A stretch of DNA of 30,000 nt. Origin: Actinomycetota bacterium. Lineage in GTDB: Bacteria > Actinomycetota > UBA4738. Shown here one piece after another: positions 20,789 to 28,377 of this stretch. The notes below the pieces were generated by a model, which was not told the origin of the DNA, made no database searches, and saw only the letters and a program-made list of their open reading frames with translations. The position numbers were made by a program, and so were the translations under genes. The stretch's first letter is position 1, and each line of letters starts with the position of its first letter. The stretch covers positions 1 through 30,000 of the forward strand of contig JACDCJ010000001.1 in NCBI GenBank assembly GCA_013817655.1, given 5' to 3'.

Positions 20789-22555
20789 CTAGAGGTACTG
20801 TCCGGCGTTGATCCGCTCCACCTGACGGCCTTCCGCGTGTCCCTGGCCGAGAAGGGTTCGGACGAAGACGATCCGCTCGCCCTTCTTTCCCGAAATGCGG
20901 GCCCAGTCGTCCGGGTTCGTCGTGTTGGGGAGGTCCTCGTTCTCTTTGAACTCGTCGCGGATCGCGCTCAGGAGGTCCTCGAGCTTCAGCCCCTTCTCGC
21001 CGTGCTGGAGGAACCGCTTGATCGCCATCTTCTTCGCCCTGGCGACGATGTTCTCGATCATCGCCCCCGAGTTGAAGTCCTTGAAGTAGAGGATCTCCTT
21101 GTCGCCGGAGGCGTAGGTGACCTCGAGGAACCGGTTCTCGTCCGACGCCGCGTACATCCTCTCCACCGTGGTATCGATCATCCTCCGAACGACGCGGTCC
21201 GGTCCGCCACCTGCTCGAACGTCCTCATCGTGGAGCGGGACGTCGGAAGTCAGGTACCGGCTCATGATCTCCTGTGAGGCCTGCGCGTCGGGCCGCTCGA
21301 TCTTGATCTTCACGTCCAGCCGCCCCGGACGCAGGATGGCCGGGTCGATCATGTCCTCGCGGTTCGATGCTCCGATCACGATGACGTTCTTGAGCGTCTC
21401 CACACCGTCGATCTCGGAGAGCAGCTGCGGAACGATGGTGTTCTCGACGTCGCTCGAGATGCCGGAACCGCGCGTGCGGAACAGAGAGTCCATCTCGTCG
21501 AAGAACACGATCACGGGGAAGCCTTCCGCCGACTTCTCCTTCGCGCGCTGGAAGATCAGGCGAATCTGCCGCTCGGTCTCGCCGACGTACTTGTTCAGGA
21601 GCTCCGGTCCCTTGATGTTGAGGAAGTACGAGTGCGCCTGCTTCTGGCCCGTCTTCTCCGCCACCTTCTGGGCGAGCGAGTTGGCGACCGCCTTAGCGAT
21701 GAGCGTCTTCCCGCAGCCGGGCGGACCGTAGAGCAGGACGCCCTTGGGTGGCTTGAGGCGGTGCTCCTCGAACAACTCGGCGTAGAGAAACGGGAGCTCG
21801 ACCGCGTCGCGGATGTCCTCGATCTGGGAGGACAGGCCGCCGATGTCGTCGTAGGTGATGTCGGGGATCTCCTCCAGGATGGCCTCCTCGACCTCCTCCC
21901 TGGGGAGCTTCTCGAGAGCGTAGCCGGAGCGCGGGTCGAACAGCACCGGGTCTCCGGCGCGCACCTGCCCCCGGACTGACATCGAAAGGAGGGCCACCGC
22001 CTCCTCGTCCCCTCGGCCAACGACGACGGCTCTGTCCTCCCCGAGCAGCTCCTTGACCGCCATGACCTCGCCGGTCACCTCCTCGTCGAGAACAGCCACC
22101 ACGTTGAGTGCCTCGTTCAGGATGACCTGGACGCCCTTTCGGAACGTGGAGCGGTCGAGCGTGGGATCGGCGTTCACCCGCATCTTCCGCCCGGCGGTGA
22201 CCACGTCGAGCGAACCGTCGTCGTTCCCCTCCAGGAAGACACCGAACGTCGCCGGTGGTCGGGTGAGCTTGTCGACCTCCTCCTTGAGGGCCTCGAGCCT
22301 TTCGCGCTCGGCGCGAAGGACGCTCGCGAGCTTCTCGTTCTGGCCCACCGCCCGCGCCAGGTCGGACCGAGCCGCCTGCAGCTGGTCCTCGAGCACGCGC
22401 ACATGACGCGGCGAGCTCGAGAGCCTGCGCCGAAGCAGCGCGATCTCGTCCTCGAGGAACTTGATCTGCGTTTGCAGCTGATGGATGTCTTTTTCGTAGC
22501 GCTCGAGCAGCTCCTCAGAATCCCGAGCACCCGGGTCTCGCGCCATGACTACCAC
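20789..22555 (-). CDS. arc: Proteasome AAA+ ATPase (ARC/Mpa)
   Basis: N-terminal coiled coil, [22 protein letters not shown] and the C-terminal GQYL docking motif. Confidence 0.97.
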
Positions 22556-23474: not shown

Positions 23475-24629
23475 TCAGCCGGTTGTGGGAAGGGGGCGGG
23501 TCCCAAGCGTGACCGAGACCGCGAAACGACCGCGGGCGTCGTTCACCAACTCGATCTCGACCTCGTCGTCGGGCTCTCGGGCGAGGATGAGCTCGCCAAG
23601 TTGCTCGGAGCCCTGGATCGACTCACCCTCAAAGGCCACGATCACGTCCCCCGGTTCGATGCCCGCGCCCTGCGCCGGCCCGCCCGGCGCCACATCGATC
23701 ACATAGGCACCGCGATCGACGGGCAGTCCGAACTGGGCGGCGACTCCGGCGTCGACGGTCGTGGTGGTCACGCCCAGGTAGGCGGCCGGCGCCTCCGGAT
23801 CAGCGATGGCACGCTCGATGAAAGGCCTTGCGGCGTTGATGTCGATGGCGAAGCCGATGTTCTCGGCCTCCCCAGCCCCGGCCGTGTTGATACCGACCAC
23901 GTTGCCGGCGAGGTCGACCAGTGGGCCACCGGAGTTTCCGGGATTGATTGGCGCATCCGTCTGCAGGACGTCCTCGAGCGTTCGGACGATCCCCTGTCCG
24001 TCCTGCCCGCCGCCCGGGTCCTGGATCTGAACGGTGCGCGCCAGGGAGCTGATGATCCCGGACGTGACGGAGGGACCACCCGGCAGGGCGAGGGCATACC
24101 CGAGGGCGACCACGCGCTCGCCGAGGGCGACCGAATCGGAGTCCCCGAGCGGCACCGTGGGGAGGTCCTGCTCGTCCACCTTCAGGACGGCCAGGTCGTG
24201 GTCGGAATCGCCGCCGATCACACGCGCCTCGAAGTTCCTGCTGTCCGGCGGCGGGAGGGTGACCATGATGCTGGTGGCTCCCTCGACGACATGGAAGTTG
24301 GTCACGATGATTCCGTCGGACCGGATGATGAATCCGGTCCCCACCCCCTCACCCCCATCGCCGCCGAAGATGGCGTCCCGGCTCTGGGTACGGGTGGTCA
24401 CGTTCACCACGGACGGGGCGACGCGATCCACCACGGTCACCACGGGGTCCTGCGACGGATCGTAAGGGTTGATCGACGGAAGGAGGGGAGTGCTCCTCGG
24501 CTCGGCCACGCGGGCCACCCGGGCGGCGGCGCTGCAGCCGGAGAGGATCAGCGCGGCGACGATGGAGGTCGCAACCAGCCTTGCCGAGCGCCCGGAGGCT
24601 CCCACGGTGCTCGTTCCATCCACCTTCAT
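23475..24629 (-). CDS. htrA: HtrA/DegP-like trypsin protease with PDZ domain, predicted lipoprotein
   Basis: VTNFHVV, DHDLAVLK, INPGNSGGPL triad plus PDZ domain. LSGC lipobox. TATGAT lies 7 nt before ATG 24629. Confidence 0.9.
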   Translation of the reverse strand: MKVDGTSTVGASGRSARLVATSIVAALILSGCSAAARVARVAEPRSTPLLPSINPYDPSQDPVVTVVDRVAPSVVNVTTRTQSRDAIFGGDGGEGVGTGFIIRSDGIIVTNFHVVEGATSIMVTLPPPDSRNFEARVIGGDSDHDLAVLKVDEQDLPTVPLGDSDSVALGERVVALGYALALPGGPSVTSGIISSLARTVQIQDPGGGQDGQGIVRTLEDVLQTDAPINPGNSGGPLVDLAGNVVGINTAGAGEAENIGFAIDINAARPFIERAIADPEAPAAYLGVTTTTVDAGVAAQFGLPVDRGAYVIDVAPGGPAQGAGIEPGDVIVAFEGESIQGSEQLGELILAREPDDEVEIELVNDARGRFAVSVTLGTRPLPTTG

Positions 24630-24637
24630 AGCATCGA

Positions 24638-24657
24638 TCATACGAAGGCACGTATGA
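24638..24657 (-). promoter_or_regulatory. Inverted repeat TCATACG-N6-CGTATGA overlapping the htrA -10
   Basis: Perfect 7-bp arms, seen directly. Operator role is inferred. Confidence 0.5.
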
Positions 24658-25062: not shown

Positions 25063-25467
25063 TCAAACGCCTTCCGCCGCGAGCTCCGTGAGCGTCGGCG
25101 CACAACTGCGGGTGGTTCGGCAGCCACACACGCAGAGCGTGCCGCTCGTGTCACTGACGCAGTCCCTGCACAGGAAGAGCCGGTCACCCTCCAGGCAGCA
25201 GCCCCACGTGTACCCGTTGTACGACCACCCGTCGGGACACAGCTGCCTCGCCCCCCCGTCGCAGTTGCAGGTGACGCCGATGGATCGGCAGGCCGTGCCG
25301 ATGCAGCACTTTGGGTCGGCCGAGGCCGTTTGCGCAAGTACCACCTGCCCAACGCCCAGGCCCGCGAGAACCGCCGACATCTTGGCAAGGAAGCCCCTGC
25401 GTGAGGTCTTTCGATACACGATGCCGGTGCCCTTCTCCACGAGGTCCCGGGTCTGCCGATCGTCCAT
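25063..25467 (-). CDS. Tat-exported, 14-Cys methylamine dehydrogenase light-chain (MauA)-like small protein
   Basis: SRRGFL Tat motif, ASA cleavage site, then C-x5-C-x6-C-x-C-x-GG-x4-CP-x-G-x7-W and RDC, matching the MauA N-terminal half as I recall it. GGAGAG RBS. Confidence 0.72.
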   Translation of the reverse strand: MDDRQTRDLVEKGTGIVYRKTSRRGFLAKMSAVLAGLGVGQVVLAQTASADPKCCIGTACRSIGVTCNCDGGARQLCPDGWSYNGYTWGCCLEGDRLFLCRDCVSDTSGTLCVCGCRTTRSCAPTLTELAAEGV

Positions 25468-25524: not shown

Positions 25525-26283
25525 TCAGGCTCCCACCGCGGCTGCGACGGCGGCACCAAGCACCGCGAAGGTGAGCGTGGTCGAGAGCGCACGCCAAAGC
25601 GGGCCCCGATCCAGACCCCAGAGGACGGGGCCCAGAGAGCCCTCTGTGCCCGCGTTAGCCAGAATCACGGCGGACAGCCCGCGTGCCGCGCCGTACGTCC
25701 CAAGGACCGCAGCGCCGGTGGCCGCGTCGCCGAGGAGTGCGGCCCCGGCCAGGACCACCACGTACCCCGCGTTCGCCACGCGAGTGCCCACCCCCGGCCC
25801 GAGAAGCGCGCCGTAAAGGGCGGCAGTGACCACCGGAGGGTACCGGTAACGCCATGCAGCGGGTACCTGGCGCCCCGATCGGGGCAGGGGAAGGCGGACG
25901 AGCCCGAGCTCCATCGCGCCGTAGCAGGTGGTGACCAGGGCGAGCAAGAGAAGCCGATCCGGCCCGGCCAGCACCAGCAATCCCCCGACGGATCCCACCG
26001 CGAGGCCGGTGAGAGCCCCCGCGAGCGTGGCCGCGACGGCGTGCGCGATGCCCGCGCCCGCTCTGGTCGCCGCGGAACCCCGGACCAGGGTCCCCACCAT
26101 GGACGCCCCTCAGGGCGACGCCAGACTGATGAGGCCCTGGGCGGCGGCGCTCACCGCAACGGCCACCGGCACGAGGGACACCGTTCCAGCGCCGACGGCC
26201 AGAGCGCCCGCAAAGGCGCCCGCCCCGGCGAGCAGCATCATCGCGGGGACGATCCGCCGGCGCGCGACAACCGTGGCGCTCAT
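25525..26283 (-). CDS. MauF/CcdA-like membrane protein with predicted selenocysteine (in-frame TGA at codon 58, 26110-26112)
   Basis: ATG 26283 overlaps the mauD stop (ATGA) and is in frame with the track ORF 25525-26100. Reads ...GLISLASP-TGA-GASMVGTL..., against the MauF STWSPCGYSS motif. C-terminal YGALLGPGVGT. Confidence 0.78.
26072..26097 (-). promoter_or_regulatory. Candidate bacterial SECIS element
   Basis: Stem GGGACCC/GGGUUCC (26094-26088 paired with 26080-26074) closes the loop UGGUCCG, which begins 22 nt after the UGA and contains GGUC. Confidence 0.65.
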
Positions 26284-26876
26284 GACGCCGAGCTCACGGA
26301 GTCGCCCTCCACCCAGACCGCACCCTCTCCCGTTCGAACCCGCCCCTGGATGAGGGAGGAGACCATCTCCCGGTTGTTAACCACTCCACGGCTCCGGACG
26401 ACCCCTGCGGTGTCGACCAGGATGGCCCGCGGCGTGGTGACGATGCCCACCGCTCGCATCGCGGCCCCATCGTCTTGCCACGCCTGGCCGGCGAACCGGG
26501 ACCGGTCGAGCATCGCTCGGGCCTCCTCCGCCGGCCCGGACAAGACCGGAACGATGGCGTGGTCGGGCCAATCCTTCACGACCCCGTCGAGCTCCGAGAG
26601 GAGGTCGGCACACAACGTGCACCGGGTGGACATGAATAGCACTACGGCCGGGCGGCTCCCGAGGTCGGGCGACGAGGGCCGGCCCGATCTGGCATCGGCC
26701 AGGCGCAAGGCCGGGAGGGTCGCCCCCGGCTCCATTCCCTCGAGCGACTCCAGCGCAGGGGCTGCCGGCAGGCGGCGACTGAGCAGACCCACCTCTCGAG
26801 CCAGGGCGAGGATCGCGAGCGCCTCGACGATCGCGAGGATCGCCAGCGCGGCGACGGCGATCCACAGGGCGGTCAC
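26280..26876 (-). CDS. MauD-like membrane-anchored thioredoxin-fold protein
   Basis: N-terminal TM helix, REVGLLSRR, CTLC (CxxC), TPRAILVD, RSRGVVNNREMVSSL. GTG 26876 overlaps the mauE stop (GTGA). Confidence 0.82.
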   Translation of the reverse strand: MTALWIAVAALAILAIVEALAILALAREVGLLSRRLPAAPALESLEGMEPGATLPALRLADARSGRPSSPDLGSRPAVVLFMSTRCTLCADLLSELDGVVKDWPDHAIVPVLSGPAEEARAMLDRSRFAGQAWQDDGAAMRAVGIVTTPRAILVDTAGVVRSRGVVNNREMVSSLIQGRVRTGEGAVWVEGDSVSSAS

Positions 26877-27457
26877 GCGTGCTCCTCGTGAGCGCGGATC
26901 CCGGTCTCGACAGTCGTCAAGAGACGGAGCGCGGCCACGGCAAGGGCGCCCGTGGCGAGGGCGGCAGCGGAGACGATGGCCACCGCGGTCGCCTCGGAAC
27001 CGGAAATCGAAAGAGGTAACGTCGAGCCCCGATCGGTGCCCAGGTGGAAGACGAGCGCCACTGCCGCTAGGCCGAGCAGCCCGATGGTTCGGGCCACGGC
27101 CGCGCCATCGATACGCTCGCCGCGGGAGGCGCCGAAGCACGCACAGGAGGCATCCAGACGGAGGTGTAGGGCCCGGATCAGGACGAGTGCGAACCCAAGG
27201 AGCAGCAACACTGCGGTCGCAAGCCCCACCGTGAGGAAGCGCGACAGCATGGCCGCGGCGGAAGCGATCTCGAGCACCGGCAGAGCCCGTGCCCCCGCCG
27301 GAACCGCCCACCTGAGCCGGACCGGAACTAGGTTACGGGCGGTTTCGACGAAGCCGGCCATATCCCTGAGCTTCGCGATTCCCGCAAGGCCGAGCACCAC
27401 GGCGAGGATCAGGCGAGCGGCCTGCAGAAGCAGCCGATCGACCTCCGACACTTCCAT
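26873..27457 (-). CDS. MauE/DoxX family redox-associated membrane protein
   Basis: LGLAGIAKL, LPVLEI, SCACFG (CxCFG motif), four hydrophobic helices, GGAGG RBS. Confidence 0.87.
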   Translation of the reverse strand: MEVSEVDRLLLQAARLILAVVLGLAGIAKLRDMAGFVETARNLVPVRLRWAVPAGARALPVLEIASAAAMLSRFLTVGLATAVLLLLGFALVLIRALHLRLDASCACFGASRGERIDGAAVARTIGLLGLAAVALVFHLGTDRGSTLPLSISGSEATAVAIVSAAALATGALAVAALRLLTTVETGIRAHEEHA

Positions 27458-27543: not shown

Positions 27544-28377
27544 GTGCGATTCGGCCTGGACGTCGCGCAACACCAGCAGGCGTGGGGAGGGATACTCGAG
27601 CGCGCTCGTTTCGCGGAGGATGCCGGGTTCGACGGCTGCTGGGTCTTCGACCACTTCAAGGCCCTCTATGGCGACCCCGTGGGTCCGTGTCTGGAGGGAT
27701 GGTCACTGCTCGCCGGGCTCGCCGCGGGAACATCGAGGATCCGCCTGGGCGCCCTGGTGACCGGGGCGACCTACCGGCATCCCTCCATCCTCGCGGCCCA
27801 GGCGGTGACCGTCGATCACATCTCGGGTGGGCGGCTCGAGCTCGGCATCGGCGCCGCCTGGTTCGAACGCGAACACGTCGAGCTCGGCATCGACTTCCCC
27901 GGGGTCCGCGAGCGCGGTGAGCGGCTCGACGAAGCGGTCCAGGTCATCCGGTCTCTGATGACCGGTGAGCCCGCGTCGTTTCAGGGGAGGCACTACCAAC
28001 TCCGCAACGCCGTATACCGGCCCCAACCAGTCCAGCAGCCGACGCCTCCGATCTGGATCGGCGCGGGAGGCGAGCGGATGATGCTTCCCATCGTCGCTCG
28101 CCGGGCGGATGTGTGGCACGGGTTCGGGCCCGCAGCGGAGATGCGGCGCAAGTCGCTGATAATCGACCGCCACGCCGAAGCGGCCGGTCGAGATCCCTCG
28201 GAGATCGGGCGCTCGTCGTCCCTGTCCATATCGGAGCCGTGGCACGCCGTCCATCGCAGGGCCGAGGACCTCGCCGGCTCGGGCTTCAACTACCTGATCG
28301 TGTCCTGGCCGTCGGAAGGCCGGGCGCGACTCGAGGAGTTCATCTCCGACGTCATGCCCGACCTCGGTGGCCTGTAG
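27544..28377 (+). CDS. LLM-class (probably F420-dependent) oxidoreductase
   Basis: WVFDHF, LGALVTGATYRHPS, TVDHISGGRLELGIGAAW, PPIWIGAGGE. GGAGG RBS. Confidence 0.9.
   Translation: MRFGLDVAQHQQAWGGILERARFAEDAGFDGCWVFDHFKALYGDPVGPCLEGWSLLAGLAAGTSRIRLGALVTGATYRHPSILAAQAVTVDHISGGRLELGIGAAWFEREHVELGIDFPGVRERGERLDEAVQVIRSLMTGEPASFQGRHYQLRNAVYRPQPVQQPTPPIWIGAGGERMMLPIVARRADVWHGFGPAAEMRRKSLIIDRHAEAAGRDPSEIGRSSSLSISEPWHAVHRRAEDLAGSGFNYLIVSWPSEGRARLEEFISDVMPDLGGL

What the first reader, a model, noticed from the sequence alone, without database searches (positions are those of the whole stretch)
25525..26283. Hidden selenoprotein: MauF-like membrane protein with an in-frame UGA at the conserved Cys (SP-U-G)
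Seen: an ATG at 26283 overlaps the mauD stop (ATGA coupling) and reads 57 hydrophobic codons (MSATVVARRRIVPAMMLLAGAGAFAGALAVG...GLISLASP), then TGA at 26112-26110, then continues in frame (GASMVGTL...) to 25525, for 252 aa. The ORF track starts the gene at 26100 and loses this. Established: MauF carries STWSPCG (recalled) and CcdA/DsbD-beta transmembrane electron transporters carry a redox-active SPC/PC cysteine; redox Cys-to-Sec swaps are typical of selenoproteins. Inference: this is a Sec-containing transmembrane electron relay. I do not know of a characterized Sec-MauF, but cannot check whether the family has already been catalogued.
Basis: partly seen in the sequence, partly recalled or inferred. 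Interest (0 to 1): 0.93.

Follow-up and report, generated by a model that had tools for sequence, protein, structure and literature searches.

The report
Selenocysteine-containing MauF-like membrane protein
The "stop codon" that splits this gene almost certainly encodes selenocysteine, at the one invariant cysteine position of a MauF-type membrane protein; this selenoprotein family is common in Actinomycetota, is cut short by gene callers, and is missing from a 2026 catalogue of prokaryotic selenoproteins.

Summary
Observation confirmed. ATG 26283 overlaps the mauD-like stop (ATGA). It opens 57 codons, then TGA (26112-26110), then 194 more in-frame codons to 25525.

- The 252-aa read-through protein is a true MauF homologue. 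hhalign against Paracoccus denitrificans MauF gives 99.6 % probability, and U58 aligns to the Cys of STWSPCG. The five best Swiss-Prot fold matches are all MauF (TM 0.84-0.86).
- The same TGA stands at the same column in all 43 distinct Sec-type sequences examined, with both flanks conserved. Other relatives carry WSPCG.
- The window's genome has a SelD gene with its own in-frame TGA (SHGAG-U-ACK).
- Sec-MauF genomes nearly always have selA (27 of 29). Five of five high-quality ones have SelB and tRNA-Sec.
- A hairpin 19-39 nt after the UGA pairs better than its codons require.

Weak points:
- selA, selB and tRNA-Sec were not found in this 74 %-complete MAG.
- Classical covariation in the window-type hairpin is weak.
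- There is no protein-level evidence.

The redox-relay mechanism is inferred. The family keeps only one redox residue, unlike CcdA/DsbD. The family is absent from a May 2026 list of 119 selenoprotein families, from Pfam and from NCBIfam. This scan has noted the same family before, on at least 11 other genomes.

The parts
25525..26283 (-). Full Sec-MauF-like gene (252 aa: 57 codons, UGA = U58, 194 codons, stop TGA 25527-25525)
   Evidence: Homology to MauF. AlphaFold2 model has mean pLDDT 90.2 and pTM 0.87.
26110..26112 (-). In-frame TGA read as selenocysteine (U58), in the motif LASP-U-GASM
   Evidence: TGA stands at this column in 43 of 43 distinct Sec-type sequences. Cys stands there in Cys-type relatives and in P. 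denitrificans MauF. It is an invariant column of alignment A4.
26074..26094 (-). SECIS-like hairpin, positions +19 to +39 counted from the U of UGA. The stem is 8 bp (GGGACCCU / GGGGUUCC) and the loop is GGUCC.
   Evidence: 8 of 8 standard pairs in the window and 96 % of cells paired across 7 window-type sequences. Only 5 of 1000 synonymous-codon resamples of the window sequence reach 8 pairs. None of 1000 reaches the summed 54 of 56. Covariation proper is weak.
26098..26100 (-). Conserved internal Met codon (M62) that gene callers take as the start. UGA-GGN just upstream gives an SD-like GAGG.
   Evidence: In one search, 123 of the 149 nearest cluster representatives begin at this Met motif. 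The Met is also conserved in Cys forms (SPCGLSM).
26280..26876 (-). MauD-like membrane-anchored thioredoxin-fold protein (C-T-L-C). Its GTG start overlaps the mauE stop (GTGA) and its stop overlaps the mauF start (ATGA).
   Evidence: BLASTP to P. denitrificans MauD gives E 1e-16 over the full length, with CxxC aligned. TIGR02661 scores 46 bits, below the cut-off. Pfam Thioredoxin_2 match is weak. Start codon read.
26873..27457 (-). MauE-family membrane protein with a C-A-C-F-G motif
   Evidence: Pfam PF07291 MauE, E 1.5e-20, 74 bits. The CxCF motif aligns with P. denitrificans MauE.
25063..25467 (-). Probable client: a Tat-signal, 14-Cys exported protein, distantly MauA-like, starting 57 nt downstream of mauF
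   Evidence: weak TAT signal match; 14 Cys. BLASTP to the P. denitrificans MauA precursor gives E 5e-7 over the leader and first Cys block. There is no Pfam Me-amine-dh_L hit. An orthologue sits in the same position in L018.

Best explanation
Window 26283..25525 (minus strand) is one gene for a 252-residue polytopic membrane protein of the MauF family. Its single invariant cysteine (the Cys of MauF's WSPCG) is replaced by selenocysteine. The UGA at 26112-26110 is recoded by SelB and tRNA-Sec with the help of a stem-loop 19-39 nt downstream.

The gene is the third of a translationally coupled mauE - mauD-like - mauF(Sec) set, followed by a Tat-exported 14-cysteine protein.

Shown here:
- homology and fold;
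- Sec/Cys alternation at this column;
- the Sec trait in the genome;
- the hairpin;
- the operon layout.

Inferred:
- U58 sits at the start of a short helix after a break in the first core transmembrane helix, as the Pro-Cys motifs do in CcdA/DsbD.
- It acts as the nucleophile of a thiol/selenol-disulfide exchange relay with the C-x-C of MauE (fused to MauF in many relatives) and the C-x-x-C of MauD.
- This relay forms or reshuffles the many disulfides of the exported Cys-rich client.
For: Sequence.

TGA conserved at the same column, with conserved flanks:
- relatives at 50-56 % identity;
- MauF-MauE fusions;
- 30 of the 30 best loci from a search of 401 genomes of the phylum;
- 5 of 5 metagenome loci.

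Cys forms WSPCG.

MauF homology: fold search; hhalign 99.6 % with U58 on the Cys of STWSPCG.

Sec trait:
- own selD carries TGA at SHGAG-U-ACK;
- selA is present in 27 of 29 other genomes with Sec-MauF;
- tRNA-Sec and SelB are above cut-off in 5 of 5 high-quality Sec-MauF genomes;
- family f19, which has no selA (0 of 7), carries Cys forms.

Hairpin.

Operon partners.

TGA is an ordinary stop elsewhere in the window: it ends 28 of the 52 open frames of at least 250 codons.
Against: - selA, selB and tRNA-Sec were not found in the window's own genome. The genome is only 74 % complete, in 227 contigs.
- The whole-segment folding energy after the window's UGA is no better than that of shuffles or synonymous recodings (z +1.28; z about 0).
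- Covariation in the window-type hairpin is not significant: one double change, and 77-84 of 500 shuffles do as well.
- There is no protein-level evidence for Sec insertion.
- For the mechanism, the family has only one conserved redox residue, and nothing here shows which partner it exchanges with or in which direction electrons flow.
Confidence: 0.85

Rival explanations
1. The Sec is genuine, but it serves as a ligand or carrier rather than in disulfide exchange. It might bind or pass a metal or chalcogen species across the membrane, as in the transporter branches of the same superfamily.
For: There is only one invariant redox residue, unlike the two-Cys carriers CcdA/DsbD. Weak fold and family echoes to MntP, GDT1, TauE-like and MerT-like transporters and to ArsG appear.
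Against: Those echoes are far weaker (TM below 0.45) than the match to MauF. The constant partners are a CxxC thioredoxin-fold protein, a CxC membrane protein and a Cys-rich exported protein, which points to thiol chemistry on a protein client.
Confidence: 0.1
2. UGA terminates translation. The locus makes two products, a 57-aa two-helix peptide and a 191-aa protein started at the conserved AUG, which has an SD-like GAGG upstream. This could happen always or only when selenium is scarce.
For: UGA-GGN plus AUG four codons later gives a start-like context in every member. Gene callers use it: and 123 of 149 representatives.
Against: Cys-form relatives and authentic MauF are single polypeptides across this point and keep the same Met. 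The stop is always TGA, never TAA or TAG, in 43 of 43 sequences. Sec-form genomes have the Sec machinery. The structure model is confident across the junction.
Confidence: 0.04
3. The TGA is a nonsense mutation, a sequencing error, or a sign of another genetic code.
For: The window comes from a fragmented MAG.
Against: The TGA is conserved across dozens of independent genomes and metagenomes. TGA ends most long ORFs in the window, including this gene and its upstream neighbour.
Confidence: 0.01

Closest known systems
MauF (methylamine utilization protein F) of the mauRFBEDACJGMN cluster, e.g. Paracoccus denitrificans PD1222 plasmid 1 (NC_008688, WP_011750949.1; Swiss-Prot P29897)
   Same: Same fold (TM 0.86). 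Profile homology of 99.6 %. The same motifs: WSP-C/U-G, P-x-P-Q-x2-(R/A)-Q-V-P and LYG-x2-LG. A single conserved redox residue. The gene sits next to mauE and mauD.
   Different: Sec replaces Cys. Identity is only about 25-27 %. The gene order is E-D-F rather than F-B-E-D. No methylamine dehydrogenase heavy chain (PF06433) was found in the genome (the genome is incomplete). The neighbouring Cys-rich protein is only distantly MauA-like.
CcdA / DsbD transmembrane thiol-disulfide carriers (Pfam PF02683 DsbD_TM, PF13386 DsbD_2; CcdA structure 5VKV)
   Same: Both are polytopic membrane proteins with a Pro-Cys/Sec motif in the first core helix. Some Sec-MauF relatives reach or pass the Pfam threshold: L029 scores 34 bits against a 24.9 cut-off for PF13386, and others hit PF02683 weakly.
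   Different: The window protein itself hits neither model. The second conserved Cys (the TM4 Pro-Cys motif) is absent from the whole family. Structural similarity to DsbD and CcdA is low (TM 0.27-0.42).
Catalogued membrane selenoproteins, e.g. the rhodanese/DsbD fusion-like TsoB (NF045694) and the SO_0444 family Cu/Zn efflux transporter (NF033936), listed in PMC13188914
   Same: Both have Sec in a membrane protein of, or near, the DsbD-like superfamily.
   Different: The motifs differ (UxxxxU and UxC against SP-U-G). No A4 member hits those NCBIfam models. MauF is not in the list of 119 families.

Membership tests
Bacterial selenoprotein | In-frame UGA aligned with Cys in homologues, with conserved sequence on both sides | tested here: met
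   U in 43 of 43 Sec-type sequences. C stands there in L062, L063, L065, L067-L069, P0014, P0054, P0056, P0166 and P. denitrificans MauF.
Bacterial selenoprotein | SECIS stem-loop shortly downstream of the UGA, with G in the apical loop | tested here: inconclusive
   The hairpin is present at +19..+39 with loop GGUCC. Pairing exceeds synonymous-codon resamples: 0 of 1000 reach the observed total in all three hairpin sets. Divergent members keep hairpins with different sequences (L029, L053, L074, L079). However, covariation in the window-type set is not significant, and the overall folding energy is not unusual.
Bacterial selenoprotein | selD, selA, selB and tRNA-Sec in the same genome | tested here: inconclusive
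   selD is present and is itself Sec-containing. selA, selB and tRNA-Sec were not found in this 74 %-complete MAG. Both other genomes searched from the same family have selA. Five of five high-quality Sec-MauF genomes have selA, SelB and tRNA-Sec.
Bacterial selenoprotein | Selenium shown in the protein (75Se labelling or mass spectrometry) | not testable with these tools
MauF | Sequence and fold homology to characterised MauF, including the WSPCG motif | tested here: met
MauF | Encoded next to mauE and mauD | tested here: met
   The overlapping start and stop codons GTGA and ATGA link the three genes.
MauF | Part of a methylamine dehydrogenase cluster (mauB heavy chain, mauA light chain, mauG) | tested here: not met
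   No PF06433 match in the genome (incomplete genome, and no control genome matched either). PF02975 gives only 13 bits, on another contig. The neighbouring Cys-rich protein has no Pfam light-chain hit and only a partial BLASTP match to MauA. mauG was not searched for.
DsbD/CcdA transmembrane domain (PF02683 / PF13386) | Match to the Pfam models | tested here: inconclusive
   The window protein has no hit. Of 28 family members, 6 hit PF13386 and 5 hit PF02683 at E up to 1. One of them, L029, is above the cut-off.
DsbD/CcdA transmembrane domain (PF02683 / PF13386) | Two conserved redox cysteines (Pro-Cys motifs in TM1 and TM4) | tested here: not met
   Alignment A4 has one invariant C/U column and no second conserved Cys. 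P. denitrificans MauF likewise.

The most novel reading that the evidence does not exclude
Sec-MauF and MauE together form a split transmembrane redox module; they are fused into one protein in many relatives. In it a selenocysteine and the MauE C-x-C replace the two-cysteine core of DsbD/CcdA. With MauD, this module is a selenium-dependent folding machine for a widespread, uncharacterised family of exported Cys-rich MauA-like proteins that work without any dehydrogenase heavy chain. In small genomes such as this one, where SelD is the only other selenoprotein seen, it may be the main reason the Sec machinery is kept.
Probability: 0.3. Interest if true: 0.85.

Novelty: new member of a known kind. 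Interest (0 to 1): 0.72.

Why it matters
It adds a large, systematically mis-annotated family to the bacterial selenoproteome:
- Family matches occur in 103 of 401 sampled genomes of the phylum.
- All of the 30 best matches are Sec forms.
- Of the 149 nearest cluster representatives, 123 start at the false internal Met.

It is a selenocysteine inside a polytopic membrane protein, which is rare among known selenoproteins.

Because Sec replaces only catalytically important cysteines, it points to the WSPCG cysteine as the active residue of MauF. To my knowledge, MauF's role in methylamine dehydrogenase maturation has never been defined.

It also gives annotators a simple rule: join the short upstream ORF and the 'MVxTI...' ORF across the TGA.

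Tried and rejected
- Pfam and NCBIfam scans of the read-through protein and of its two halves found nothing.
- A PDB sequence-profile search found nothing useful. Foldseek against PDB gave no match at E up to 0.001, and CcdA 5VKV reached only TM 0.27.
- The search for related loci on genome contigs gave a single locus, cut at the contig end. The first attempt, with the broad alignment, had no conserved stretch to search with.
- tblastn of P0166, of P0002 and of the window's MauE against plasmids found nothing. I reached P. denitrificans MauF instead by reading the plasmid record directly.
- A whole-segment folding-energy test against shuffles and synonymous recodings was not informative for the window.
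- Rfam found nothing in the window.
- FdhA was not found in the genome.
- The selB-model hit on contig C227 (181 bits, below the cut-off) lies about 1.7 kb from another translation-GTPase-type match on the same contig. I read it as an elongation factor, not SelB.
- Literature searches for MauF or MauE together with selenoprotein returned only noise.
- A guessed PMC id for the 1994 mau paper is not held.
- P0004 (the nr 'hypothetical protein') is truncated by a contig end, not by the TGA, so I did not use it as evidence of mis-annotation.

Full report
**Observation**

On the minus strand, ATG 26283-26281 overlaps the TGA stop of the upstream gene (ATGA). It opens 57 hydrophobic codons ending GLISLASP. 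TGA follows at 26112-26110. The same frame then continues (GASMVGTLVRG...) for 194 codons to the stop at 25527-25525. Mechanical ORF calling gives two pieces, 26110..26283 (57 aa) and 25525..26100 (191 aa). The description is exact.

**Conservation of the TGA**

- Database relatives of the protein are almost all about 190-200 aa long and begin at the Met that lies four codons after the TGA.
- Of the 149 nearest cluster representatives, 123 start at that motif and only 3 are full-length Cys forms.
- Reading the DNA upstream shows why. Metagenome relatives at 56 % and 50 % identity have the same in-frame TGA in SLASP-U-GGSMVGTL.
- Five further window-type loci have it too.
- A more distant group, often fused to MauE, has STLF(S/G)P-U-GLSMVETITP.
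- A profile search of 401 genomes of the phylum found the family in 103 of them. All of the 30 best loci carry the TGA at the same column.
- In total this makes 43 distinct Sec-type DNA sequences, the window included.
- One of the 30 loci (L047) comes from genome G120, which is flagged unpublished. No conclusion depends on it. The tallies include unpublished genomes G001, G048, G088, G120, G318 and G336.
- Other relatives have Cys at this position: GTWSP-C-G(L/F)SM in L062, L063, L065, L067, L068 and L069, and in P0014 and P0166. P0054 has YWSPCGASM, and P0056 has a Ser-Cys variant (WSSCGCSM).
- In a 28-sequence full-length alignment, the C/U column is one of only seven invariant columns, and it is the only conserved redox residue.

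**What the protein is**

- The read-through protein hits no Pfam or NCBIfam model.
- With the alignment, AlphaFold2 gives a confident all-helical membrane model: mean pLDDT 90.2, pTM 0.87. A helix break comes just before U58, and a short helix runs over residues 57-66.
- Against Swiss-Prot AlphaFold models the five best matches are all MauF. They come from Paracoccus versutus, P. denitrificans, Methylophilus methylotrophus, Methylobacillus flagellatus and Methylorubrum extorquens, with TM 0.84-0.86 and 25-27 % identity over about 250 residues. DsbD, MntP and similar proteins follow far behind.
- I read the P. denitrificans mau cluster from plasmid 1 and translated mauF. A profile-sequence comparison gives 99.6 % probability, E 1.6e-24. 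LLSTWSPCGYSSISLL aligns to LISLASP-U-GASMVGTL, and the P-Y-P-Q-R-R-A-Q-V-P and LYG-x2-LG motifs align as well.
- Some relatives also reach the Pfam DsbD_2 or DsbD_TM models. L029 scores 34 bits against a cut-off of 24.9. The family is therefore a distant branch of the DsbD/CcdA superfamily. Unlike those carriers, it has no second conserved cysteine.

**Does the organism decode Sec?**

- The genome is a MAG of 1.79 Mb in 227 contigs, 74 % complete.
- selA, selB and tRNA-Sec were not found. The best tRNA-Sec model hits are tRNA-Ser and tRNA-Leu.
- selD is present at 385 bits and itself contains an in-frame TGA at SHGAG-U-ACK, the classical Sec position. That is only viable in a Sec-decoding cell.
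- selA is present in both other genomes searched from the same family, and in 27 of the 29 other genomes whose Sec-MauF locus I read. The exceptions, G174 and G235, are draft assemblies (50 and 130 contigs) rated 96 % and 94 % complete.
- Five high-quality Sec-MauF genomes all have tRNA-Sec (71-83 bits, cut-off 47) and SelB (283-329 bits, cut-off 242).
- Family f19, with selA in 0 of 7 genomes, carries Cys forms.
- TGA is an ordinary stop in the window.

**SECIS**

- Positions +19 to +39 after the U (window 26094-26074) form an 8-bp hairpin, GGGACCCU / GGGGUUCC, with loop GGUCC.
- Across the seven window-type sequences, 54 of 56 cells are standard pairs. Sliding the partner by one column drops pairing to 66-71 %.
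- Only one pair shows a double change, and shuffles do as well in 77-84 of 500 cases. Covariation proper is therefore inconclusive.
- I ran a test that respects the protein. It resamples synonymous codons using the genes' own usage.
  - Window-type hairpin: resample mean 35.8 pairs, maximum 45, against 54 observed; 0 of 1000 resamples reach the observed value.
  - First hairpin of the larger group: 206 of 216 pairs observed, resample mean 169; 0 of 1000 reach it.
  - Second hairpin of the larger group: 261 of 288 pairs observed, resample mean 188; 0 of 1000 reach it.
  - Window sequence alone: 5 of 1000 resamples reach 8 of 8 pairs.
- Divergent members (L029, L053, L074, L079) keep hairpins at these places with different sequences.
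- Whole-segment folding energy is not unusual for the window.

**Context**

- The gene is the third of a coupled set:
  - MauE family, 27457..26873 (PF07291, E 1.5e-20, motif C-A-C-F-G);
  - MauD-like, 26876..26280 (GTGA overlap with mauE; C-T-L-C; BLASTP to P. denitrificans MauD E 1e-16);
  - Sec-MauF, 26283..25525 (ATGA overlap with mauD).
- After a 57-nt gap comes a Tat-signal protein with 14 Cys (25467..25063). Its leader and first Cys block resemble the MauA precursor (E 5e-7), but it has no Pfam light-chain hit.
- No dehydrogenase heavy chain was found.
- In the larger group, the same module recurs with a 10-Cys Tat protein and a CxxC thioredoxin-like protein. There, MauF is often fused to MauE in one ORF of about 400 aa.

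**Mechanism**

Shown:
- a MauF homologue with Sec at the family's only invariant redox position;
- constant association, and frequent fusion, with MauE (C-x-C), with MauD (C-x-x-C) and with an exported Cys-rich protein.

Inferred:
- U58 lies after a helix break in the first core helix, followed by a positively charged segment that is probably cytoplasmic. It acts as the nucleophile of a thiol/selenol-disulfide relay, with the resolving thiol supplied in trans by MauE or MauD. The relay serves the oxidative folding or isomerisation of the client.
- From my own knowledge of the mau literature, not checked here: mauF, mauE and mauD mutants of Paracoccus and Methylobacterium fail to accumulate the six-disulfide light chain.
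- The direction of electron flow and the partner are not established. A carrier or ligand role for the Sec is a minority alternative.

**Novelty**

- A May 2026 review lists 119 prokaryotic selenoprotein families and subfamilies. It has no MauF, MauE-associated or SP-U-G entry. The nearest items (TsoB, SO_0444) have other motifs and their models are not hit.
- Two other selenoprotein papers, a 2022 review and the 2025 deep-Sep methods paper, do not mention MauF, DsbD or CcdA.
- This scan's own notes show the same family flagged, and followed up with the same conclusion, on at least 11 other genomes. I re-derived the points used here independently.
- I class it as a new member of a known kind: a Cys-to-Sec redox selenoprotein in the known MauF family.

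Noticed in passing
L009:1474-2500 (own genome, contig C13): selD carries an in-frame TGA at SHGAG-U-ACK (L009 1531-1533), so it is a Sec-containing SelD. Plain ORF calling starts it only at 1612.
   Followed up: partly
L022:3635-4843; also L023, L024, L027, L033, L035, L040, L042: In many relatives, Sec-MauF is fused in frame to a MauE domain (with C-G-C-F-G) as one protein of about 400 aa. This argues that the two act as one unit.
   Followed up: partly
window 26098-26112 (-): UGA-GGN followed by the conserved Met four codons later makes an SD-like GAGG-N7/8-AUG. This explains the systematic false start. It leaves open whether a truncated protein is made when selenium is lacking.
   Followed up: no
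window 25063-25467 (-): A Tat-signal protein with 14 Cys has a leader and first Cys block resembling the P. denitrificans MauA precursor (E 5e-7), but it has no Pfam light-chain match. A near-identical arrangement is present in L018 1331-1753.
   Followed up: partly
alignment A4 (window residues 132-145): An almost invariant, positively charged loop, P-x-P-x4-(R/A)-Q-V-P-x2-W-R, is shared with authentic MauF. Its function is unknown.
   Followed up: no
L074 (G164) and L079 (G305): Divergent Sec forms (LWSP-U-GLSVTETV and U-GESMLASISP) keep two hairpins after the UGA, built from quite different sequences.
   Followed up: partly
window 20789-22555 (-), 23475-24641 (-), 27544-28377 (+): The neighbours are an AAA ATPase that looks like the actinobacterial proteasome ATPase (it ends ...GQYL; judged by eye only), an HtrA-type serine protease with a PDZ domain, and a luciferase-like monooxygenase (the last two from Pfam).
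   Followed up: no
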